64,000 bases of DNA from the sequence record PZ445428.1, one strand, 5' to 3'. The notes beneath the pieces are model-generated. The model searched no databases. It saw nothing but the letters and a program-made list of their open reading frames with translations, and was not told where the DNA came from. Made by a program: the position numbers and the translations under genes. This document shows positions 22,661 through 54,130 of this stretch, piece by piece. How positions within the stretch are numbered: the stretch's first letter is position 1; each line of letters starts with the position of its first letter. The DNA is from a phage.

Positions 22661-22689
22661 TTGCATAATGACTCAAAACAAAGTAGAAT
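22661..22689 (+). promoter_or_regulatory. sigma70 promoter for nrdA
   Basis: TTGCATaatgactcaaaacaaagTAGAAT. Confidence 0.45.
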
Positions 22690-22727
22690 ATTTCCTAAAT
22701 CCTGAGAACTACAAAAAGGAAACTGCA

Positions 22728-25061
22728 ATGGACTTTCGAATCACAAAAGTAATTAAACGCGACGGTACGATCCAGGACTTTGCTCCTGAAAAACTCAACG
22801 ACTGGGCTGCGTGGGCATGTAAGAATGCTAACGTTAGCTGGTCTGCCGTAGTTATGGCTGCACTGAAAAATCTACCTAAAGGGGTTGTAGATTCCGATAC
22901 ACTTCAAGATGTATTAATCAAAGCAGCAGAAGGTTTGATCAAAGATAACCCTGCGTATGATGAAGTAGCGAAGGAATTACGTCTTGCACAGATGCGTAAA
23001 CGCCTGTATGATTCCTATGAACCACCTTCTTTACGTTTCTTCCATGACCACATGGTTAAAGTTGGGGCTTGGGAAGATATGAGTGCATGGATTTCCGATG
23101 AACAGTTTGACGCTTTGAATGGTGTTATTGATCATGAACGTGATCGTCTCTTCACTAGCGGTGGTCTGAAACAGTTCTTCGATAAGTATTCCCGTCGTAA
23201 TATCGCAACTGGCGAAATTTACGAAACCCCGCAATTTGCCTACATGGGTATGGCAATGGCGATGTTATCTCAACCTAACTGGACAATTCTGGATGCAATC
23301 GACCTCTACAATGCAATGTCGCTCCATAAAATCAACGTTCCTACTCCGCCACTGGTTGGTCTGCGCTCTAGTGACCGTGGATTTGCTAGTTGCTGCCTCG
23401 TGGATTCCACGGACACGCTGGATTCAATCGACACAGCCGAGCACATCGTTTTCAAAATGGTCGCAGCCAGAGCGGGAATCGGGTATCATCTTGAAAGCCG
23501 ATCAATTGCTGATCCGGTGCGAAATGGGGCGTTCCCGCATTCCGGAAAACTGCCATATTATAGACACATCGACCGTTCAGTAAAAGCGAACACTCAGCAA
23601 ACCCGTGGTGGTTCTGCTACTGTATCTTATCCGTACTTCGATCCTGAAATCATTCAGTTGATGCAGGTTAAACAGCAACGTGCTACAGACGAGAACAAAA
23701 TCGATAAGATGGACTACTCTCTGAGCTTTAACAACCTTCTATTGAAACGTTATCTGAAAAACGAAGATATTACGCTCATGTCTTACTTCTATGCACCAGA
23801 AGTCCACGAAGCGTTTTATGGGGAAGATGAGGCTAAGTTTGAAGAAATCTATGTGGCAGCGGAGAAACGTGTGGCATCTCTTACAAAGATCGACCACGAA
23901 GGAAAAACAATTCCAGCAGCTCCTAAAATCCCTGCAAAAGAAATCCTAGATACTTGGTTACGTATCCGTATGGAAACAGGTCGTATGTACGCTCATCACA
24001 TTGGGGAATCTAACCGTCATGGTAACTTCCTTGACCCGATTCGTATGACCAACCTTTGTGTAGAGATTACCCAGCCAACTCGTCCATTCCAGCACATTAC
24101 GGAACTGTACAAAACTCCAGATCAACTGGATGATATGCGTCCAGAAGATATTGGTGAAGTATCTCTGTGTAACCTGGGTGGTGTTGTTCTAGGCCGTATG
24201 AGTTCTCTGGCAGAATGGGAGAAAACTTGCTACATCCTTCTGAAATTCGTTGATACTATCATTGAAATTCAGGACTATCCGTTCCCAACTATGGAATACA
24301 CGGCTAAGAAGCGTCGTAACGTAGGTATTGGTCTGATGAATGCAGCAGGTGCAATGGCAGCAGAAGGTCTGGCTTACGAAGGTGAAGAAGCTCGTAACTG
24401 GATTCACCGTGAAGCTGAGAAGCTCTCTTACTTCCTGCATAAAGCCTCTGTACGTCTGGCAAAAGAACAAGGTGCATGTGATTGGTTTAACCGTACCAAA
24501 CCTTCTCAAGGAACTCTGGTAATCGACACCTATAAGAAAACTGTTGATGAACTGGTATCCGTAGGTCTAGAAATGGATTGGGAATCTCTGCGTGCAGATA
24601 TCCTGAAATACGGTATGCGTAACTCTGTTCTGACAGCTCAGATGCCTGGTGAAAGTTCTTCTGTACTGTTAGGTGTTACCAACTCAATTGAGCCACCTCG
24701 TAAGATTGTATCTATCAAGGGTAGTGCAGTGAACAAAGTAATTGCAATTGCTCCAGGTGCAACTGATTGGGATACTCTCATGAGCTATAAACTAGCCTAT
24801 GATGTAGATCGCATTGAGTGGATCAAGTGGGTAGCAACTATGCAGAAATTCTTCAGCCAGTCTATTAGTACGAACATGTACTATGACTACACCAAGTTTG
24901 AGAATGAAATCATTCCTGGCCCAGTAGTAGTTCGTGATTTCATGACTGCTGTTAAGTACGGATGGAAGACTTGGTACTACGCTAACTTCAACACTGAAAA
25001 CGGTGGTGGAGCAGGTGAAGAAGCCGCAGCTGGTTGTGCATCAGGTGGTTGCCAACTTTAA
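22728..25061 (+). CDS. nrdA: ribonucleoside-diphosphate reductase alpha subunit (class Ia)
   Basis: ATP-cone start MDFRITKVIKRDG; active-site TNLCVEI; C-terminal CASGGCQL. Confidence 0.9.
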   Translation: MDFRITKVIKRDGTIQDFAPEKLNDWAAWACKNANVSWSAVVMAALKNLPKGVVDSDTLQDVLIKAAEGLIKDNPAYDEVAKELRLAQMRKRLYDSYEPPSLRFFHDHMVKVGAWEDMSAWISDEQFDALNGVIDHERDRLFTSGGLKQFFDKYSRRNIATGEIYETPQFAYMGMAMAMLSQPNWTILDAIDLYNAMSLHKINVPTPPLVGLRSSDRGFASCCLVDSTDTLDSIDTAEHIVFKMVAARAGIGYHLESRSIADPVRNGAFPHSGKLPYYRHIDRSVKANTQQTRGGSATVSYPYFDPEIIQLMQVKQQRATDENKIDKMDYSLSFNNLLLKRYLKNEDITLMSYFYAPEVHEAFYGEDEAKFEEIYVAAEKRVASLTKIDHEGKTIPAAPKIPAKEILDTWLRIRMETGRMYAHHIGESNRHGNFLDPIRMTNLCVEITQPTRPFQHITELYKTPDQLDDMRPEDIGEVSLCNLGGVVLGRMSSLAEWEKTCYILLKFVDTIIEIQDYPFPTMEYTAKKRRNVGIGLMNAAGAMAAEGLAYEGEEARNWIHREAEKLSYFLHKASVRLAKEQGACDWFNRTKPSQGTLVIDTYKKTVDELVSVGLEMDWESLRADILKYGMRNSVLTAQMPGESSSVLLGVTNSIEPPRKIVSIKGSAVNKVIAIAPGATDWDTLMSYKLAYDVDRIEWIKWVATMQKFFSQSISTNMYYDYTKFENEIIPGPVVVRDFMTAVKYGWKTWYYANFNTENGGGAGEEAAAGCASGGCQL

Positions 25062-25069
25062 TAAAACTA

Positions 25070-25096
25070 AGGAGATCTTCGGGTCTCCTTTTTCTT
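25070..25096 (+). terminator. intrinsic terminator with UUCG tetraloop
   Basis: AGGAGATC-ttcg-GGTCTCCT followed by TTTTCTTT. Confidence 0.65.
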
Positions 25097-25107: not shown

Positions 25108-25136
25108 TTGCTAATCGCGACCTGATTTGCTATAAT
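25108..25136 (+). promoter_or_regulatory. sigma70 promoter for the HNH endonuclease gene
   Basis: TTGCTAatcgcgacctgatttgcTATAAT. Confidence 0.6.
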
Positions 25137-25160
25137 ATCTCTATATTAAGGAGATATACT

Positions 25161-25679
25161 GTGAAACCTCAATTAACAAAAGAATTTCTAGAGAAATACC
25201 TAGAACTCAGAGAAGATACACTCTATTGGAAGCCAAGAGAAACTAACAAGGGTGGATTTAACACTAGATTTGCTGGAAAACCTGTAGGAGCCGTCAATGG
25301 AAATGGCTACCTATGCTTCCGACTTAATGTGGAAGGTTATAGATGGGAGTTAAGAAATCATGTAGTAATCTTCTGTCTCTATTATGGATATTACCCTACT
25401 AAGACAGTAGATCATAAAGATACAAATAAACTTAATAACCACCCTTTAAGTCTAAGGGAATCAACCGATGCTGGTAACGCCCAAAATAGAGGAGCTGGTA
25501 AAAACAATACTCATGGGCATAAAAACCTAGAGCCTCTTAGTTCAGGAAACTGGAGGGTTAGGATAACACACAACGGTACTGTTTATAGATCTTCCGCAAT
25601 GCCTTTAGAAAAAGCTCTAGAACATAGAGATATTAAACTTAAAGAATTTCATGGTGAATACGCTAATAATGGAGAATAA
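25161..25679 (+). CDS. HNH homing endonuclease, free-standing between nrdA and nrdB
   Basis: GTG start after AAGGAGA; NUMOD-like YWKPRE...GYLCFRL and HNH region TVDHKDTNKLNNHPLSLRE. Confidence 0.7.
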   Translation: MKPQLTKEFLEKYLELREDTLYWKPRETNKGGFNTRFAGKPVGAVNGNGYLCFRLNVEGYRWELRNHVVIFCLYYGYYPTKTVDHKDTNKLNNHPLSLRESTDAGNAQNRGAGKNNTHGHKNLEPLSSGNWRVRITHNGTVYRSSAMPLEKALEHRDIKLKEFHGEYANNGE

Positions 25680-25682
25680 TTA

Positions 25683-26828
25683 ATGACAACCTTACTAAAT
25701 CTGAACTGGAATCCTGATTCTGAAGAGCTATTTCTGGGTGATGCTTTGGGAGTAGCAGACTATGTTCGTGTTGCTCATCCAGAGCTAGAACGACTTGCAC
25801 TATTGCAGAGGAGCCAGTTTTGGACTGAAACAGAAATCAGTCTAGAAAGTGACAAAAAGCAATGGCCTAATCTCCCAAGAGAAATACAAGAAATCACTCT
25901 GCTGAATTTAGCTTGGCAGGTTCAAACAGATTCATTTATTAGTAGAGCACCAGAAGCCGCAGTACTTCCTTTGGTTAGTCGCCCTGAGTTAGAGGGAATG
26001 CTAAAGCAGTGGAGCTACTTCGAAGATCTGCACAGCCGTGCTTATAGCAACATTATCCGTAACGTTCTGACTGATCCAGCAGAATTTATCGATTCTGTTA
26101 CAAAAAACCAAGAAGCATTCGCACGTATCGCTGATTCCGTAGAACTGTTCGATGAACTGTATCAATTAGGTCAGTATTTCATCGCAGTACGTGACCATCG
26201 TGGTGACAATACTTATCCAGAAACCGAGTTTCCTGAAGTTAAACGTGAAACTCAGGCTAAACTGTTAGATGCCTATTTTGCAATCTATGGTCTGGAAGCA
26301 ATGCAGTTCTACGCATCTTTTGCTTGTACCTTTGCTCTAGCAGAAAACGATATTCTGCAAGGTATTGCTAAGAACCTGCAATTGATTGCTAAAGATGAAG
26401 CTCTGCATACTCAAATGTCCAAAGCAGTTATCCAGATCATGTTCCAGCAGTTCGACCAAGATCTGATTGATGAAGCTCTGGCTAAAGCACCAGCGCAGCT
26501 TTTGAAAACTCTGCAAACTGAAATCAACTGGGGCCACTTTATCTTTAAAGGCCGTAGTCTGATTGGTCTGAACGCAGAACTTCTGGAAGAATACCTTTAC
26601 TTTGTAGGACGTAACGCATTTATGCATATTGGCGTAGAATGGCCGAGCAATCTGCCAGTAATTACTAAGAACCCAATTCCGTGGATCATGAACTGGCTGG
26701 ATACTACCTCTTTACAACCTGCTCCACAGGAAATCCAGATTGGTGCAGCTTATCGTGTAGGTCAGGTAACTGAGACTTCAACTGATACCTTGAAAGACCT
26801 GGGTAATGAATTTGAGGGCATGTTCTAA
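25683..26828 (+). CDS. nrdB: ribonucleoside-diphosphate reductase beta subunit
   Basis: 381 aa; di-iron ligand motif KDEALHT. Confidence 0.9.
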   Translation: MTTLLNLNWNPDSEELFLGDALGVADYVRVAHPELERLALLQRSQFWTETEISLESDKKQWPNLPREIQEITLLNLAWQVQTDSFISRAPEAAVLPLVSRPELEGMLKQWSYFEDLHSRAYSNIIRNVLTDPAEFIDSVTKNQEAFARIADSVELFDELYQLGQYFIAVRDHRGDNTYPETEFPEVKRETQAKLLDAYFAIYGLEAMQFYASFACTFALAENDILQGIAKNLQLIAKDEALHTQMSKAVIQIMFQQFDQDLIDEALAKAPAQLLKTLQTEINWGHFIFKGRSLIGLNAELLEEYLYFVGRNAFMHIGVEWPSNLPVITKNPIPWIMNWLDTTSLQPAPQEIQIGAAYRVGQVTETSTDTLKDLGNEFEGMF

Positions 26829-27364
26829 TGATAGCAGCAATCTATGCAACTGGGCCGAAAGGGGAGTTCGGCCTCAATGGTAGACTCCCTTGGGGTTCCT
26901 TCAAAGAGGAACTAGATATATTTTATGCCACACTAGATTCTCTAGCACCTGATAACATCATCATTGGTGCAGGTACGTGGTTGGGCTTTCCTGAAACGCT
27001 TCAAAAGCGGATTTTAGGGGATTCTGATCTGTTTATTTATGCCAATGCCCACAAGCCTTTACCAGAAACTATTGGGTGCCCTACTCGAATTACTAGCATT
27101 GGGTATACTTTGCCTGAATTCTTTAAGGAAGAAGTAACAGTAGTATTGGGCGGAGCAGCTTTGCTCCTAGAGATGTATGCTAAAAATCACTTAGACATGG
27201 CATATGTTTCGACAATCGCATCAGCAACACCATTATCAGCTGATGTACACTTGCATCCACATATTACTATGACTAACTCGATGGCAACCAGAATGGAGTA
27301 TGCATCAGGGGAGAATGCGGATAAAACCCTTTCCTTCCTACAGGAGCTGGTAACGTTTAAATGA
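26828..27364 (+). CDS. folA: dihydrofolate reductase
   Basis: N-terminus [22 protein letters not shown] and VVLGGAALL resemble FolA; ATGA overlap with nrdB. Confidence 0.65.
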
Positions 27365-28215
27365 AACAATATATTGAAACAGGAAAACGTATTCTCGAAG
27401 AAGGTCAGTGGGTAACTAATCCTAGAACAGGTGTACGTTGCCTCACTATTATTGATGCAGATTTCACTTTTAATGTGGGGGCTAATGAATTTCCTCTTAT
27501 TACTACTCGTAAGGCATTTGCAAAACAAGCAATAATGGAAATGATTGGCTATCTACGTGGTTATGACTCCGCAGCACAATTCCGCGATATCGGGGTTAAT
27601 ACGTGGAACGCTAATGCAAATGAAAACCTTGCATGGTTGGATAATCCATATCGTAAAGGCGAGGATGATATGGGACGGGTCTATGGTGTTCAAGGACGTC
27701 ATTGGACAAACTCTGATGGTCTTATGTTTGACCAATTATCCAAGATCTATCGTAACCTGAAAAGAGGGATTGATGATCGTGGGGAAATTCTAACTTTCTG
27801 GAATCCGGGGGAGTTCTCAAAGGGCTGCTTGCGTCCTTGTATGCACACCCATCAGTTCTCTATTCTAGGTGATACCTTATATCTGAATTCATTTCAGAGG
27901 TCTAATGACTTCCTGCTAGGCCAGGTATTTAACATGGTTCAATGCTACGCTTTGCTTGCAATCATGGCTCAAATCACTGGATATAAACCTGGGATCGCTC
28001 GCCAAAAGATCGTGAATCTTCACATCTATGAGAATCAGTATGAAGTTCTAATGGAACACAAACAGTTTGATCGTGAACCTTTTGAGCCGCCTCATCTGAT
28101 TATTAATCCAGATATTCGAACTTTGGATGATGTATTAACTTGGGTAAGTAAGGATGATTTTACTGTTCGTGGCTATGAACATCATCCTGCTATTGCATAT
28201 CCATTTACGGTGTAA
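27361..28215 (+). CDS. thyA: thymidylate synthase
   Basis: [15 protein letters not shown] start, PLITTRK, and active-site Cys in [10 protein letters not shown] resemble ThyA. Confidence 0.85.
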
Positions 28216-28218
28216 CAT

Positions 28219-28572
28219 ATGTTAATTATACTATTATTTGTAATATTCTTTCTAAAACATTTTATGGCCGATTATCCTCTCCAAACACCATATATGCTAA
28301 GAAAGACTCATAAAATAGGGTGGAAACTTCCATTATTAACCCATTCTCTAGTACATGCTGTATTAACATTTGCAATTCTAATTCTATTCACATCACTAGG
28401 GATGGCTATAGCTTTAGCTATTATGGAATTAATTTTACACTTTATTATAGATTATTGGAAAGCACAACGCTGTAAGTACGCTATAAGCGATGCTAAGTTT
28501 TGGATAGCTTTAGGATTTGATCAGTTACTGCACTATCTGACATACGCCTTAATAATCTTGATTATAATCTAA
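28219..28572 (+). CDS. hypothetical integral membrane protein
   Basis: 117 aa, strongly hydrophobic. Confidence 0.5.
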   Translation: MLIILLFVIFFLKHFMADYPLQTPYMLRKTHKIGWKLPLLTHSLVHAVLTFAILILFTSLGMAIALAIMELILHFIIDYWKAQRCKYAISDAKFWIALGFDQLLHYLTYALIILIII

Positions 28573-28577
28573 CTCAA

Positions 28578-28601
28578 ATAGCCCTTCGGGGCTATTATAT
28601 T
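28578..28601 (+). terminator. intrinsic terminator with UUCG tetraloop
   Basis: ATAGCCC-ttcg-GGGCTAT followed by a T-rich run. Confidence 0.55.
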
Positions 28602-28611
28602 TAAATTTCAT

Positions 28612-28640
28612 TTGCTTACTGAGTGAAATTCAAATATAAT
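28612..28640 (+). promoter_or_regulatory. sigma70 early promoter
   Basis: TTGCTTactgagtgaaattcaaaTATAAT. Confidence 0.6.
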
Positions 28641-28664
28641 ATATTTTATAAATTGGAGACACCT

Positions 28665-28919
28665 ATGGGACTCTTTAAAAAGAAAGTTTATTTAACACAA
28701 AGTCAAGAACGCAGGTTCTTAACTCTGTCTCAGTATTATCACTTACCTTTCGATCATTTCGTAGAACGGGCGATAGAACAATTCCTAGAAAAGGAACTAA
28801 GGGCAATAAGACCCGAACCGCCAAGAGTACCCAATGATGCACAGAGAGGCCACCCACGTATTCCTCCTATGCCGCCAATTCCTCAGGCGACTAGGGTCAT
28901 TGTAGAGGGCGAAAAATAA
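28665..28919 (+). CDS. hypothetical protein
   Basis: Start moved to ATG after GGAGAC; the track start lies inside the promoter. Confidence 0.45.
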   Translation: MGLFKKKVYLTQSQERRFLTLSQYYHLPFDHFVERAIEQFLEKELRAIRPEPPRVPNDAQRGHPRIPPMPPIPQATRVIVEGEK

Positions 28920-29188
28920 TGTCTATTCTTTTATCTGCTTTAGAAGCAAAACAAAATACTATTGCTGTTATTAAACAGGAAGTAATTGACCTAGAATCAC
29001 TTATTGCCGTAGAGATTGATAAAGCAATCAAAGAAAAAGAATTTAACTGCCATATTCAGGGATTAACTGAATATTCAGAAAACGCCAGAAACAGCGTTAT
29101 GCAACGACTTACTAAACTAGGCTATATCGTAGAGGCTAAGTATGAGCAGCGTGAAGGTTTTTGGCTTGAAATTGACTGGAGCAAATAA
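28919..29188 (+). CDS. hypothetical protein
   Basis: 89-aa ORF with ATG overlapping the upstream stop. Confidence 0.5.
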   Translation: MSILLSALEAKQNTIAVIKQEVIDLESLIAVEIDKAIKEKEFNCHIQGLTEYSENARNSVMQRLTKLGYIVEAKYEQREGFWLEIDWSK

Positions 29189-29664
29189 TGTCGGTTTTCC
29201 ACATATATACAGATGGTGCATGTAAAGGTAATCCTGGGTTAGGCGCTTGGGGTTTTGTAGTATATGATCCTACTGATGAACGTTTAGGTTCTAAATCCGG
29301 TTTTAATCCAAAAACCACAAATAATGAGATGGAACTCACAGCTATTGTTGAAGTTCTACGTTGGGCTACTAAAAATGATAAGCGCCCAGCTATGATCTAC
29401 ACTGACTCTACATACTGTAAAAATGGCATGGAAAGCTGGGTTTTCTCCTGGCAGAAAAAAGGCTGGAAGAAAGCCGATGGAGAAGCCCCTCTTAACCTAG
29501 AGTTGTGGAAAGAAGCATTCTCATTACTACAAAAATACATAAACTTCCACGACACCACACCGACCTTCGTTAAAGTCAAGGGGCACTCAGGTGGTCCTAG
29601 AAATGACGAAGTAGACGCTCTATGTAATACAGTTATAACAGAGCAAGAGTTAGCTGAGATGTAA
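29188..29664 (+). CDS. rnhA: ribonuclease H
   Basis: FTDGACKGNPGLGAWG, TTNNEMEL, YTDSTY, KGHSG and DEVDALC align with E. coli RNase HI. Confidence 0.85.
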   Translation: MSVFHIYTDGACKGNPGLGAWGFVVYDPTDERLGSKSGFNPKTTNNEMELTAIVEVLRWATKNDKRPAMIYTDSTYCKNGMESWVFSWQKKGWKKADGEAPLNLELWKEAFSLLQKYINFHDTTPTFVKVKGHSGGPRNDEVDALCNTVITEQELAEM

Positions 29665-52273: not shown

Positions 52274-52349
52274 TTTCGTAAATAATTCATTTGCTAAAAC
52301 CCTCTCCTTTTGATATAATATTTATATAAATTGATGAGAGGGCTTTGAA

Positions 52350-52622
52350 ATGAAAGAAGCAGAAATTAATGAAATGGCTAGGGTTTTCGTAGTTTCCTAT
52401 ATGCAAGGTAGCTGCAATAGTCTTTTCGATTCAGCAGTAGTATTTCAGGAAGAATTAGCTGAGAAAGGTATACATATGGAAGATACTGAAATTGAGGATC
52501 TTCTGATGGAAGCTGCAAGTAGTGCAGAAGTATTCTTGTGTGATAATTGTGGTTGGTGGTGTCCTGAGCATGACCGTTCTGAAGAAGGCTCTTACTGTTC
52601 TGACTGTGAGGGAGAAGAATAA
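52350..52622 (+). CDS. acidic protein with C-terminal zinc ribbon
   Basis: CDNCGWWCPEH...CSDCEG; 90 aa. Confidence 0.5.
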   Translation: MKEAEINEMARVFVVSYMQGSCNSLFDSAVVFQEELAEKGIHMEDTEIEDLLMEAASSAEVFLCDNCGWWCPEHDRSEEGSYCSDCEGEE

Positions 52623-52918
52623 TGAATAAGTTTACTATTGCACTGATGATTTCCGCAGTTAGTTTCAGTTCTCTGGCATCCACCAAAGTTTCTATGAAAA
52701 ATGGTAATGTTAAAGTTCAGCAGAACGGCATTACCACTGAGTATGGTAAAGTCAGATTAGTAAAGGAGCGTAATGGTAATATAGAAATTATGACCAATAA
52801 AAACTTCTCTACTCCAGCTATTACCATTCAGCGTAACGGTAATATTACTACCCAACGTTCCAACAATTCTGACTCGTTTACTTGTCGTTATGATTGTGGT
52901 GTGGAAGTAGAAGAATGA
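52622..52918 (+). CDS. secreted small protein
   Basis: Signal peptide MNKFTIALMISAVSFSSLA; NGN repeats. Confidence 0.5.
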   Translation: MNKFTIALMISAVSFSSLASTKVSMKNGNVKVQQNGITTEYGKVRLVKERNGNIEIMTNKNFSTPAITIQRNGNITTQRSNNSDSFTCRYDCGVEVEE

Positions 52919-53442
52919 TTACTCAAGAAAGGTTAAAAGAACTGCTAGAGTATAATCCTGAGACAGGACAATTTACTAATAAAATCCTAAGAGGTAGACT
53001 AAAGGTAGGTGCATTTGCAGGCACGTTAAGGTCTGATGGGTATATCCAAATAAGGCTTGATAAAAAAGCATATTATGCACAACAACTAGCTTTCCTATAT
53101 ATGACAGGTATACTTCCAGAGGAAGTTGATCACATTAATAGGATTAGGTCGGATAACAGATGGGTTAATCTTAGAGAATCTAACAGACAAGAAAATAGTA
53201 GAAATCGTAAATCCACTAGTAACTCTGGATACTTAGGTGTGTCTTGGAATACAAAGGCACAGAAATGGCAAGTAATGGTGCGAAATTCCACGGGAAATAA
53301 TATATTTGGTGGTTATTTTAACTATGAAGATTTAGATTATGCCGTTGCTAAAGCTAATGGATTACGACTAGAATTGCATGGAACTCTAGCAGTTATCGAA
53401 GAGTTTAGCGGTTTTCCACAAGAAAGAGAGAGAAGAACGTGA
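52915..53442 (+). CDS. HNH homing endonuclease with AP2-like DNA-binding domain
   Basis: EVDHINRIRSDNRWVNLRESNRQEN (HNH) and YLGVSWNTKAQKWQVMV (AP2-like); start moved to ATG overlapping the upstream stop. Confidence 0.7.
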   Translation: MITQERLKELLEYNPETGQFTNKILRGRLKVGAFAGTLRSDGYIQIRLDKKAYYAQQLAFLYMTGILPEEVDHINRIRSDNRWVNLRESNRQENSRNRKSTSNSGYLGVSWNTKAQKWQVMVRNSTGNNIFGGYFNYEDLDYAVAKANGLRLELHGTLAVIEEFSGFPQERERRT

Positions 53443-53732
53443 AAGAAATAAACTTAAACAGTTACGCGAGGATTCTAGCGACGGAACCAGTTCTGGAGTT
53501 CCTTCGTAAAGAACATACTGAATTCTGGCAAGAGTACAGCTTTGAGCATGGTTCAGAAGCAGCCGCAGCCTTTGCTAGAAAAAGAATTGACGAGTATGTT
53601 GACCCAGTAATTACTGATGGATTTATCAAGATGCCCCTTTGGGATCTGATGCAAAAATTCGGTGACACAATGGTAATGGGACGAGTTCCTTACTTCACTG
53701 AAATCTACTTTGACGAAAAGGATATTAAATGA
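53439..53732 (+). CDS. hypothetical protein
   Basis: 97-aa ORF. Confidence 0.5.
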   Translation: MKEINLNSYARILATEPVLEFLRKEHTEFWQEYSFEHGSEAAAAFARKRIDEYVDPVITDGFIKMPLWDLMQKFGDTMVMGRVPYFTEIYFDEKDIK

Positions 53733-54013
53733 TTGTTTCTCCGTTTGCTCTTTGGTTTATTATTGGTGCAGTCGTTGCGATTTACAGCTGTGTTGACGAT
53801 GTGTTCTTCTCGAAAAACAAGGCTGTATTGTTAGAGCATATGCGGCGAACTTCCTCAGATATCTTAACCTTCTTTGGTGAGGAAAAGGCATACAAGATCG
53901 CTCTAGCAATATTTATTATATTTGACACATTATTCGGGCCGGTAGCTCTCTACGGATTCTATCGTAAAACCCGCAAGATGAAACAACTCAAAGCTGAATA
54001 CTTTGGGAAGTAA
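53729..54013 (+). CDS. hypothetical membrane protein
   Basis: 94 aa, two hydrophobic helices. Confidence 0.5.
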   Translation: MIVSPFALWFIIGAVVAIYSCVDDVFFSKNKAVLLEHMRRTSSDILTFFGEEKAYKIALAIFIIFDTLFGPVALYGFYRKTRKMKQLKAEYFGK

Positions 54014-54130
54014 AGAACTCGCGTAGGACCGAGTTAGTGTCACCTACTAACGTTACGGAGGGGAGTCGTGCCCCCGACAGGCAAAAGTGGTGAGTTGGTC
54101 GCTGACCTCAATTTTAACTTAGGAGCTAAC

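What the first reader, a model, noticed from the sequence alone, without database searches (positions are those of the whole stretch)
25161..25679. Free-standing HNH homing endonuclease with its own promoter between nrdA and nrdB
A terminator and a dedicated promoter bracket an HNH-family gene inserted exactly between the two class I RNR subunit genes, a classic homing-endonuclease position. A second HNH-AP2 endonuclease lies at 52915-53442.
Basis: partly seen in the sequence, partly recalled or inferred. Interest (0 to 1): 0.45.

Follow-up and report, generated by a model that had tools for sequence, protein, structure and literature searches.

The report
Mobile HNH endonuclease gene before nrdB
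This is an ordinary, already annotated selfish "homing endonuclease" gene sitting between the two ribonucleotide-reductase genes of a T5-like phage; comparison with relatives shows it has moved between phages together with about 250 bases of the neighbouring gene, and this copy carries a change at a normally invariant active-site residue.

Summary
The window is Escherichia phage TrudiGerster (Bas27, Epseptimavirus). The ORF at 25161-25679 is real and is annotated "putative homing endonuclease" in GenBank. It matches Pfam HNH_3. A confident AlphaFold model matches I-HmuI, with a C-terminal AP2-like domain.

The terminator and promoter exist but are not dedicated to this gene. They are nrdA's terminator and nrdB's promoter, near-identical in relatives with no gene here. 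The cassette sits between the -10 box and the nrdB start codon.

About 440 T5-like phage records match the junction:
- 249 are empty.
- 34 carry this gene.
- About 150 carry one of four other HNH lineages (23-35% identical).

TrudiGerster resembles an empty-site phage on both sides. Across 25139-25931 (the gene plus 249 bp of nrdB) it matches carriers instead: 66 of 68 informative sites. A second phage with a T5-like backbone carries the gene in a patch with different ends. A metagenomic relative has a 73%-identical copy beside an nrdB only 56% identical.

dN/dS is 0.01-0.03. The only amino-acid difference from most carriers is N97S, at the middle Asn of H-N-H. That position is Asn in 92 of 92 aligned homologues, so this copy's activity is uncertain.

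Verdict: a known kind, well supported as mobile, of modest interest.

The parts
22668..25061 (+). nrdA (class Ia RNR large subunit), the upstream neighbour. Its 3' end serves as the left homology arm.
   Evidence: Pfam Ribonuc_red_lgC E=4e-120. Annotated in MZ501108.
25069..25095 (+). Intrinsic terminator of nrdA (9-bp GC-containing stem, UUCG loop, T-run). It is not specific to the endonuclease gene.
   Evidence: Conserved in empty alleles and in alleles with other endonuclease genes.
25108..25136 (+). T5-type promoter TTGCTA-17-TATAAT with an extended -10 TG. This is the pre-existing nrdB promoter, now driving the endonuclease gene plus nrdB.
   Evidence: Identical in empty alleles, where it directly precedes nrdB. 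The AKFV33 record annotates the same site as a T5-consensus promoter.
25139..25931 (+). Recombinant patch: the endonuclease cassette plus the first 249 bp of nrdB. It has carrier-type (SH9-like) ancestry on an otherwise empty-site-like (AKM_ECS-like) backbone, as a co-conversion tract would.
   Evidence: 66 carrier-type against 2 empty-type informative sites inside; 108 against 326 outside; Fisher p=3e-32.
25148..25153 (+). Shine-Dalgarno AAGGAG for the endonuclease gene, 7 nt before the GTG start.
   Evidence: Read from the sequence.
25161..25679 (+). Free-standing HNH_3 / AP2-like homing endonuclease gene (172 aa; bas27_0060).
25410..25487 (+). H-N-H (beta-beta-alpha-metal) core, residues 84-109. 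D84-H85 is the metal ligand and general base, S97 sits at the middle-Asn position, and N106 and N109 lie on the helix.
   Evidence: Alignment to I-HmuI 1U3E, D74/H75/N87/N96. Family alignment.
25449..25451 (+). Codon 97, AGT (Ser). It is AAT (Asn) in all 9 other carriers examined, and Asn in 92 of 92 aligned homologues.
25515..25661 (+). C-terminal three-strand-plus-helix domain (residues about 119-167) with an AP2-like fold, the presumed DNA-binding and specificity module.
   Evidence: AlphaFold pLDDT 94.4. Foldseek match to the Arabidopsis TEM1 AP2 domain, prob 0.99-1.0, rmsd 1.8 A over 54 columns. Many homologues carry Pfam PF00847. Pfam AP2 does not hit this protein itself.
25669..25672 (+). 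GGAG inside the last codons of the endonuclease gene, 10 nt before the nrdB ATG. It replaces the native nrdB ribosome-binding site.
   Evidence: Read from the sequence. The native UTR ...GAGAAAGAGGAAAATCAATG is present only in empty and FFH_1/S124-type alleles.
25683..25931 (+). 5' end of nrdB carrying the endonuclease-linked haplotype. This is the candidate region for the enzyme's target in empty alleles and for the resistance substitutions in carriers.
   Evidence: Carriers are 86.7-96.4% identical to the window here (group mean 94.0%), while all other site states are 75-78% identical. Eleven positions separate all carriers from all non-carriers: nrdB nt 32, 34, 38, 69, 93, 166, 167, 204, 207, 219, 231.
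25683..26828 (+). nrdB (class Ia RNR small subunit), the downstream neighbour, inferred to be co-transcribed with the endonuclease gene.
   Evidence: Pfam Ribonuc_red_sm E=2.6e-34. Annotated in the record.

Best explanation
The ORF is a free-standing homing endonuclease gene of the I-HmuI-like HNH_3 class. It has an N-terminal beta domain, a His-Me finger nuclease core and a C-terminal AP2-like DNA-binding domain.

It forms a ~540-bp cassette with a short leader and its own Shine-Dalgarno. The cassette is inserted between the -10 box of the nrdB promoter and the nrdB start codon. It therefore has no promoter of its own. It is inferred to be read from the nrdB promoter on one early mRNA with nrdB, frd and td. 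Its last codons supply the ribosome-binding site for nrdB.

The inferred mode of spread is as follows. In a mixed infection with a T5-like phage whose junction is empty, the enzyme nicks or cuts that phage's DNA, most likely in the first ~250 bp of nrdB. Recombinational repair from the carrier genome then copies in the cassette together with the adjoining nrdB 5' segment. That segment carries substitutions which make the carrier allele resistant.

Shown here:
- the family and fold;
- the shared promoter and terminator;
- the presence/absence and multi-allelic polymorphism of the site;
- patches of carrier-type sequence bracketing the gene on two different backbones;
- a gene better conserved than its flanks in a distant relative;
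- strong purifying selection.

Inferred, not shown:
- endonuclease activity;
- the position of the target;
- the direction of transfer.

In TrudiGerster itself the enzyme carries N97S at the structural Asn of the H-N-H motif. This copy may therefore be weakened or inactive.
For: Family and fold:
- Pfam HNH_3 above its cut-off.
- D84/H85/N106 align to I-HmuI D74/H75/N96.
- AlphaFold pLDDT 94.4. The top PDB match is I-HmuI 1u3e (E=7e-4), followed by AP2-domain matches for the C-terminus.

Shared regulatory signals:
- The terminator and promoter are near-identical in empty alleles and in alleles with other endonuclease genes.

Polymorphism of the site:
- 440 junctions matched, of which 249 are contiguous and empty.
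- 34 carry this type, 29 the Spc35 type and 75 the T5 hegH / P-TflVIII type.
- 43 carry the FFH_1 type and 6 the S124 type.
- The lineages are 23-35% identical to this protein.

Transfer:
- The three-way comparison puts breakpoints at 25123/25139 and 25931/25934, with 66:2 against 108:326 informative sites, p=3e-32.
- HZ_ZJUN2 has a T5-like backbone and a separate patch, about 25040 to about 26030.
- The metagenomic homologue P0002 is 73% identical and sits at the same site. Its nrdB is only 56% identical and its nrdA 64-77%.
- Between TrudiGerster and the SH9 group, dS is lowest at the gene (0.23) and rises on both sides: nrdA 0.35-0.46, nrdB 0.56-0.66, phoH 0.8-0.9, td 1.1-1.3, frd 1.5-1.8.

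Other support:
- The gene's GC3 is 24.9%, against 36-40% in its neighbours.
- dN/dS is 0.01-0.03.
- The closest precedent is T4 mobE, which lies between nrdA and nrdB and nicks the 5' region of T2 nrdB. One recombination point there falls within the first 189 nt of nrdB (PMC2790892).
Against: - No cleavage data exist for this protein or for any occupant of this site. T5's gene is still called 'putative' (P-TflVIII).
- T5-like genomes are mosaic everywhere. A patch could therefore arise by ordinary recombination without a nuclease.
- The breakpoints were chosen after looking at the data.
- The three-way pattern does not give the direction of the event. It fits gain in TrudiGerster or loss in the AKM_ECS/RN29 lineage.
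- The patch is 96% identical to the sampled carriers, not 100%. The donor is unsampled or the event is not recent.
- S97 replaces a family-invariant residue in this copy.
Confidence: 0.8

Rival explanations
1. In this genome the gene is a freshly disabled relic. The cassette arrived by homing, but the TrudiGerster protein (N97S) no longer cuts DNA. It persists only because deleting it would remove nrdB's ribosome-binding site. This would be the first step of the usual decay phase of a homing endonuclease gene.
For: - S97 lies at the position of I-HmuI Asn87.
- The position is Asn in all 9 other carriers and in 92 of 92 aligned homologues.
- It is the only amino-acid difference from 7 of the 9 carriers, alongside 22-23 silent differences.
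- This Asn is proposed to hydrogen-bond the general-base His. The equivalent N311A change abolished detectable HpyAV activity (PMC2816704).
Against: - Ser can still donate or accept a hydrogen bond.
- In I-CreII the equivalent N161A change kept catalysis and lost only DNA affinity, about 25-fold (PMC2761285).
- The ORF is intact, with no other damage.
- One substitution cannot distinguish decay from a tolerated variant or a base-call error at 25450.
Confidence: 0.4
2. The gene is kept because it benefits the phage, not only because it is selfish. It could act as a weapon that damages co-infecting competitor genomes (marker exclusion). It could also act as a DNA-binding protein that tunes expression of the nrdB operon it sits in.
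For: - dN/dS of 0.01-0.03 is as low as, or lower than, that of the adjacent essential genes nrdA (0.05-0.08) and nrdB (0.02-0.03).
- The gene sits in the leader of an essential operon and supplies its ribosome-binding site.
- It has a sequence-specific AP2-like domain.
Against: - 57% of related phages do without any gene at this site.
- Four unrelated-looking lineages substitute for it.
- Frequent homing alone can maintain purifying selection.
- No data point to a regulatory role.
Confidence: 0.12
3. The gene is an immobile, vertically inherited accessory gene. The patch pattern reflects the general mosaicism of T5-like phages, and the empty sites reflect repeated deletions.
For: Informative sites of both types are scattered across the whole region, and neighbouring genes show very different divergences.
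Against: - The switch of ancestry coincides with the cassette on two different backbones.
- The first 249 bp of nrdB is the only flanking segment whose haplotype tracks the state of the site.
- In L041 the gene is far better conserved than its flanks.
- Empty junctions are uniform and show no deletion scars.
Confidence: 0.06
4. One reading: an endonuclease gene that brought its own promoter and is insulated from nrdA by its own terminator.
For: Both signals are present immediately upstream of the gene.
Against: - Both signals are present, almost unchanged, in 249 empty junctions, where the promoter drives nrdB directly.
- Cassette-specific sequence begins only after the -10 box, at 25139.
Confidence: 0.03

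Closest known systems
T4 MobE (free-standing HNH homing endonuclease between nrdA and nrdB of T-even phages; Wilson & Edgell 2009, PMC2790892)
   Same: - Same genomic niche, the nrdA-nrdB spacer of a virulent coliphage.
- HNH-class nuclease, not encoded in an intron.
- MobE nicks the 5' region of the recipient's nrdB, and recombination points fall in the first ~190-515 nt of nrdB.
- Here the carrier-type tract ends about 250 nt into nrdB.
   Different: - MobE has no promoter and is co-transcribed with nrdA. This gene lies downstream of the nrdA terminator and behind the nrdB promoter.
- The published His-Me classification puts MobA-E in a different group from HNH_3 / I-HmuI (PMC5714182), so this is an analogue and not an orthologue.
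- Sequence similarity to MobE was not tested here.
- No activity data exist for this gene.
I-HmuI (Bacillus phage SPO1 intron-encoded HNH nicking endonuclease, PDB 1U3E; Pfam HNH_3)
   Same: - Best sequence and fold match in the PDB.
- Same D-H ... N ... N core, and a similar size (174 aa).
   Different: - I-HmuI is intron-encoded and uses helical and helix-turn-helix C-terminal domains. This protein is free-standing and has an AP2-like C-terminal domain.
- The whole-chain superposition is poor (TM 0.40, rmsd 13.7 A).
- This copy has Ser at the position of I-HmuI Asn87.
T5 hegH / P-TflVIII and the other occupants of the same site (Spc35/AKFV33 type, FFH_1 type, S124/H8 type)
   Same: - Same family and the same domain order.
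- The T5 and Spc35 types use the same insertion point, after the -10 box, and end at the nrdB start.
- The T5 type also shares the leader ...ATCTC..TTAAGGAGAT.. and a non-ATG start.
   Different: - Only 23-35% identical in protein.
- The FFH_1 and S124 types use a second insertion point upstream of the promoter.
- None of the others is linked to the diverged nrdB 5' haplotype seen with this type.
T5 F-TflI / F-TflII / F-TflIV (characterised T5 HNH site-specific endonucleases; Akulenko et al. 2004, cited in PMC10644984)
   Same: Free-standing HNH endonucleases of T5-like phages, recognised as the main source of gene-content differences among these phages.
   Different: From my own knowledge, they lie elsewhere in the genome, in the tRNA region. 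Their relation to this protein was not tested here.

Membership tests
HNH_3 / I-HmuI-like His-Me finger endonucleases (Pfam PF13392) | Sequence match to the family profile above the curated threshold | tested here: met
   33.8 bits against a cut-off of 24.8, E=2.7e-8. PHROG 99, E=3.9e-38.
HNH_3 / I-HmuI-like His-Me finger endonucleases (Pfam PF13392) | General-base His preceded by an acidic metal ligand (I-HmuI D74-H75) | tested here: met
   D84-H85, invariant in 93 of 93 aligned sequences.
HNH_3 / I-HmuI-like His-Me finger endonucleases (Pfam PF13392) | Middle Asn of H-N-H (I-HmuI N87) in the loop between the two strands | tested here: not met
   This copy has S97. All 9 other carriers and 92 of 92 aligned homologues have Asn. 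The lineage meets the feature; this copy does not.
HNH_3 / I-HmuI-like His-Me finger endonucleases (Pfam PF13392) | Metal-binding Asn at the start of the core helix (I-HmuI N96) | tested here: met
   N106 (Asn in 90 of 93) and N109 (93 of 93).
HNH_3 / I-HmuI-like His-Me finger endonucleases (Pfam PF13392) | Beta-beta-alpha-metal fold | tested here: met
   The model has strands 82-85 and 98-101 and helix 103-109, pLDDT 94. Top PDB matches are I-HmuI and I-PpoI.
HNH_3 / I-HmuI-like His-Me finger endonucleases (Pfam PF13392) | Metal-dependent DNA nicking or cleavage | not testable with these tools
   Needs purified protein.
Free-standing homing endonuclease gene (mobile by cleavage plus gene conversion) | Separate ORF in an intergenic region, not inside an intron or intein | tested here: met
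   It lies between the nrdA stop and the nrdB start.
Free-standing homing endonuclease gene (mobile by cleavage plus gene conversion) | Presence/absence polymorphism at an otherwise conserved locus | tested here: met
   249 empty junctions against 34 carriers among about 440 records.
Free-standing homing endonuclease gene (mobile by cleavage plus gene conversion) | History of the gene differs from that of the genome; flanking markers are co-converted | tested here: met
   Patches on two backbones. The nrdB 5' haplotype is linked to the gene. The gene is 73% identical against 56% for nrdB in L041.
Free-standing homing endonuclease gene (mobile by cleavage plus gene conversion) | Enzyme cuts the gene-less allele and spares its own | not testable with these tools
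   Prediction only: the target lies within nrdB nt 1-250 of empty alleles.
Free-standing homing endonuclease gene (mobile by cleavage plus gene conversion) | Over-representation in the progeny of mixed infections, dependent on the nuclease | not testable with these tools
   Needs phage crosses.
AP2 DNA-binding domain (Pfam PF00847) | Sequence match to the AP2 profile | tested here: not met
   - No AP2 match at E<=10 for this protein.
- hhalign against the AtERF1 AP2 domain gave probability 4%.
- A PDB profile search found no AP2 entry.
- The second gene scores only E=1.5.
AP2 DNA-binding domain (Pfam PF00847) | Three-stranded sheet packed on a C-terminal helix, superposable on solved AP2 domains | tested here: met
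   Strands 123-125, 131-137 and 140-143 plus helix 149-167. Matches 7et4/7et5, prob 0.99-1.0, rmsd 1.8-2.8 A over 54-62 columns. Full-length homologues carry PF00847 together with PF13392.
T4 MobE family | Promoterless and co-transcribed with nrdA; MobE-type HNH sequence | tested here: not met
   This gene lies behind a terminator and the nrdB promoter. HNH_3 is placed in a different His-Me group from MobA-E (PMC5714182). Direct sequence comparison with MobE was not done.

The most novel reading that the evidence does not exclude
The nrdA-nrdB junction of T5-like phages may be a contested landing pad. At least five HNH-AP2 lineages compete for two insertion points about 70 bp apart.

This lineage alone travels with a strongly diverged, amino-acid-changing nrdB 5' haplotype (H11P, A56S and others). 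That haplotype would be its resistance determinant.

On this reading, TrudiGerster's N97S is not decay but a selected attenuation. It could turn the protein into a binder or nickase once the allele is fixed locally. That would make Bas27 and Bas28 (IrmaTschudi, N97) a natural isogenic-like pair for testing what the middle Asn does in a homing enzyme.
Probability: 0.1. Interest if true: 0.5.

Novelty: new member of a known kind. Interest (0 to 1): 0.3.

Why it matters
The practical gain is limited.

- **Annotation.** The promoter belongs to nrdB. Several GenBank records mis-call, over-extend or omit this gene.
- **Comparative picture.** The analysis gives a clean view of one homing site in T5-like phages: the frequencies of each site state, two insertion points, and two independent transfer patches.
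- **Testable prediction.** The enzyme's target should lie in the first ~250 bp of nrdB in empty-site phages.
- **Available material.** TrudiGerster (Bas27) and IrmaTschudi (Bas28) are BASEL collection phages (collection name from my own knowledge). The protein differs between them only at N97S, so a homing cross and a test of the middle Asn are directly feasible.
- **What stays the same.** Nothing here changes how homing endonucleases are understood.

Tried and rejected
- **AP2 by sequence.** Pfam at E<=10 gave no AP2 match for this protein. A PDB profile search with the C-terminal domain returned only weak, chance-level matches, the best being the I-TevI catalytic domain at E=0.02. The AP2 call rests on the structure model only.
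- **Single-sequence search of the big protein database.** It returned only two clusters. A profile of the site's occupants was needed to reach 1487 homologues.
- **An 'empty, 171-bp spacer' class** from my first script. It was an artefact of where tblastn ended the nrdA match. L022 and L029 are ordinary empty junctions.
- **An internal terminator like mobE's.** Only a 5-bp hairpin at 25442-25458, without a T-run, was seen. Not pursued.
- **Literature.** I found no paper on this gene, on TrudiGerster's endonucleases, or on T5 hegH activity. One search failed on a term that was too short.
- **Direction of the TrudiGerster event** (gain or loss). It could not be settled from three-way comparisons.
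- **Not done.** A whole-genome phylogeny of all carriers.
Full report
**What is there**

The window is 100% identical to Escherichia phage TrudiGerster (Bas27; MZ501108.1; Demerecviridae, Epseptimavirus).

- The ORF at 25161-25679 (+), 172 aa, starts with GTG and has an AAGGAG Shine-Dalgarno 7 nt upstream.
- It lies between nrdA (22668-25061) and nrdB (25683-26828), followed by frd and td.
- The GenBank record already calls it 'putative homing endonuclease' (bas27_0060).
- The hairpin at 25069-25090 plus T-run, and the TTGCTA-17-TATAAT promoter at 25108-25136, are both present.
- The second HNH_3 gene at 52915-53442 is also real. These two are the only members of the family in the window.

**What the protein is**

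- Pfam HNH_3 is matched above its cut-off, and PHROG 99 'HNH endonuclease' at E=3.9e-38.
- The only meaningful PDB sequence match is I-HmuI (1U3E). In that alignment D84/H85 correspond to the metal ligand and general base D74/H75, and N106 to the metal-binding N96.
- An AlphaFold model built on 93 sequences is confident: mean pLDDT 94.4, pTM 0.84.
- Foldseek against the PDB ranks I-HmuI first (E=7e-4), then I-PpoI. The Arabidopsis TEM1 AP2 domain follows for the C-terminal three-strand-plus-helix module, with prob 0.99-1.0 and rmsd 1.8 A over 54 columns.
- Sequence tests for AP2 failed for this protein. Many full-length homologues do carry PF00847 together with PF13392.
- The architecture is therefore an N-terminal beta domain, an HNH core, and an AP2-like DNA-binding domain. 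This is the arrangement described for group 2 His-Me finger homing endonucleases (PMC5714182).

**The promoter is not the gene's own**

I aligned the junction with two relatives that have nothing between nrdA and nrdB (vB_SenS-AKM_ECS, RN29). I also included two that carry a different HNH gene there (Spc35, AKFV33).

- The terminator and promoter are almost base-for-base identical in all five.
- In the empty alleles the promoter is followed by a 30-nt leader (...TATAATATTCCTGAAATAGTGAGAAAGAGGAAAATCAATG) and then nrdB.
- Sequence specific to the cassette begins just after the -10 box.
- The cassette ends with TAA three bases before the nrdB ATG. The GGAG in its last codons takes the place of nrdB's native ribosome-binding site.

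The signals are therefore nrdA's terminator and nrdB's promoter. The gene is an insertion into the nrdB leader and, by inference, is transcribed together with nrdB. This differs from T4 mobE, which is promoterless and read through from nrdA (PMC2790892).

Counts below are records in the phage collection. They include GenBank/RefSeq duplicates.

| Site state | Records | Source |
|---|---|---|
| Junction matched | 440 | |
| Contiguous empty junction | 249 (57%) | |
| This gene | 34 | |
| Spc35/AKFV33 type | 29 | |
| T5 type (hegH, 'P-TflVIII') | 75 | |
| FFH_1 type | 43 | |
| S124/H8 type | 6 | |

- All 34 copies of this gene are at least 94.8% identical in protein to the window's. The next-best hit in the phage collection is 42%.
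- The five occupants are homologous but only 23-35% identical to this protein.
- They use two insertion points. This type, the T5 type and the Spc35 type sit after the -10 box.
- The FFH_1 and S124 types sit upstream of the promoter. They bring their own hairpin and leave the native promoter and leader intact.

**Evidence that it has moved**

1. *A patch in TrudiGerster.*
   - Outside the cassette, TrudiGerster's closest sampled relative is the empty-site phage AKM_ECS: 95% identical on the left and 92% on the right.
   - Across 25139-25931, TrudiGerster is instead 96% identical to carriers such as SH9. Over the nrdB part of that stretch it is only 75% identical to AKM_ECS.
   - At sites where AKM_ECS and SH9 differ, TrudiGerster matches SH9 at 66 of 68 inside the patch. 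Outside it matches AKM_ECS at 326 of 434. Fisher p=3e-32, with the caveat that the breakpoints were chosen after inspecting the data.
   - The left switch falls between 25123 and 25139, at the -10 box. The right switch falls between 25931 and 25934, about 250 bp into nrdB.
2. *A second, independent patch.* HZ_ZJUN2 has a backbone that tracks T5 yet carries this gene at 93.6% nucleotide identity. Its patch has different ends (about 25040 to about 26030) and a mosaic stretch at 25688-25815.
3. *A linked nrdB haplotype.*
   - The first 249 bp of nrdB is the only flanking segment whose haplotype follows the state of the site.
   - Carriers are 86.7-96.4% identical to the window there (mean 94.0%). 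Every other state, empty or occupied by another lineage, is 75-78% identical.
   - Beyond the patch there is no association with site state.
   - Eleven nrdB positions separate all carriers from all non-carriers. They include changes that alter the protein, H11P and A56S.
4. *Better conserved than its flanks.* Metagenomic T5-like contigs encode a 73%-identical copy at the same site. Their nrdB is only 56% identical to TrudiGerster's and their nrdA 64-77%.
5. *A gradient of divergence.* Between TrudiGerster and the SH9 group, dS is lowest at the gene (0.23). It rises on both sides: nrdA 0.35-0.46, nrdB 0.56-0.66, phoH 0.8-0.9, td 1.1-1.3, frd 1.5-1.8.
6. *Composition.* The gene's composition differs from its neighbours: GC3 24.9% against 36-40%.

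This is the pattern expected of a homing endonuclease gene that spreads with a short co-conversion tract. It closely parallels T4 mobE. That enzyme nicks the 5' region of the recipient's nrdB and leaves recombination points within the first 189-515 nt of nrdB (PMC2790892).

**Selection, and the odd residue**

- The gene is under strong purifying selection, with dN/dS of 0.01-0.03 in all nine comparisons.
- TrudiGerster differs from SH9, SLAM_phiST45, BSP22A, SB9 and IrmaTschudi by 23 nucleotides. Of these, 22 are silent.
- The single amino-acid change is N97S (AAT to AGT, codon 25449-25451).
- Residue 97 aligns with I-HmuI Asn87, the middle 'N' of H-N-H.
- It is Asn in all nine other carriers, in the other occupants of the site, and in 92 of 92 aligned homologues.
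- This Asn is proposed to hydrogen-bond the general-base His. The equivalent N311A mutant of HpyAV had no detectable activity (PMC2816704).
- In I-CreII, however, N161A kept catalysis and lost DNA affinity about 25-fold (PMC2761285).

Whether TrudiGerster's own enzyme is active is therefore open. I put roughly 40% on substantial impairment. A sequencing error cannot be excluded from the data in hand.

**How it most likely works**

- Early transcription from the nrdB promoter gives an mRNA that starts near 25143 and encodes the endonuclease, then NrdB, Frd and Td. This is inferred, not shown.
- In a cell co-infected with an empty-site T5-like phage, the enzyme binds through its AP2-like domain and nicks or cuts that genome. 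The target is most plausibly within nrdB nt 1-250, where all carriers differ from all non-carriers.
- Repair from the carrier genome copies the cassette and the adjoining nrdB segment. The invariant terminator-promoter block serves as the left homology arm.
- The carrier's own nrdB 5' haplotype would be refractory to cutting.
- None of these biochemical steps has been shown for this protein.

**Comparison with what is known, and verdict**

- By family this is an I-HmuI-like HNH_3 homing endonuclease.
- By niche and inferred behaviour it is the T5-group counterpart of T4 MobE, but not its orthologue.
- By locus it is an allele-like alternative to T5 hegH.
- The kind is well known, and homing endonucleases are already recognised as the main gene-content variable among T5-like phages (PMC10644984; PMC12639943). 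This copy is annotated.
- New here are the site census, the two transfer patches with mapped ends, the linked nrdB haplotype as a target prediction, and the N97S change.
- Interest is modest at 0.3.

Noticed in passing
window 52915-53442 (+): Second HNH_3 gene of the same family, 23% identical to the first in alignment A2 (28% over the local BLASTP match) and annotated 'putative homing endonuclease'. Pfam AP2 scores only E=1.5. Only 5 of 387 related phage records cover at least 80% of 52300-54100, so this region is also variable.
   Followed up: partly
L041 1688-4924 (also L042, L043): In the metagenomic T5-like contigs that carry the 73%-identical homologue, nrdA is 1078 aa. It contains an insertion of about 290 aa after KANTQQ (starting CYSADTEIL and ending ...VCGN|S) that looks like an intein. 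A further HNH_3 gene sits just upstream of nrdA. That makes three selfish elements around one RNR operon.
   Followed up: partly
L010 4385-5001; L032 4366-5001: The FFH_1 and S124/H8-type endonuclease genes use a second insertion point in the same spacer. They lie upstream of the nrdB promoter, replace the nrdA terminator with a hairpin of their own, and leave the native promoter and leader intact.
   Followed up: partly
L004 2020-2045 (Spc35; same in AKFV33 L005): In the Spc35-type cassette the ATG lies only 6 nt after TATAAT. A transcript from this promoter would be leaderless or nearly so.
   Followed up: no
L035 3748-3840; L038 3401-4078; L040 3575-4093; P0001: Annotation problems in relatives. 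BSP22A labels a 31-aa minus-strand ORF inside the gene as 'H-N-H-endonuclease F-TflVI'. PMBT36 and misterkot call a 220-225-aa ORF that runs back through the promoter and terminator into nrdA. EH7 leaves the gene unannotated.
   Followed up: no
window 26828-27364 (frd) and 27361-28215 (td): frd and td are far more diverged from the SH9 group (73-85% nucleotide identity; dS 1.1-1.8) than nrdA and nrdB, yet 86-97% identical to AKM_ECS. The mosaic blocks switch sharply.
   Followed up: no
window 28200-29300: Gene content downstream of td varies among close relatives. The 354-bp ORF at 28219-28572 is missing from several of them. An extra 579-bp ORF (called 'protease' in YZU-L1) is present in YZU-L1, SB9 and IrmaTschudi but not here.
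   Followed up: no
window 25442-25458: A 5-bp palindromic hairpin (CCCTT-TAAGTCT-AAGGG) inside the gene has the N97S codon in its loop. It has no T-run, and its significance is unknown.
   Followed up: no
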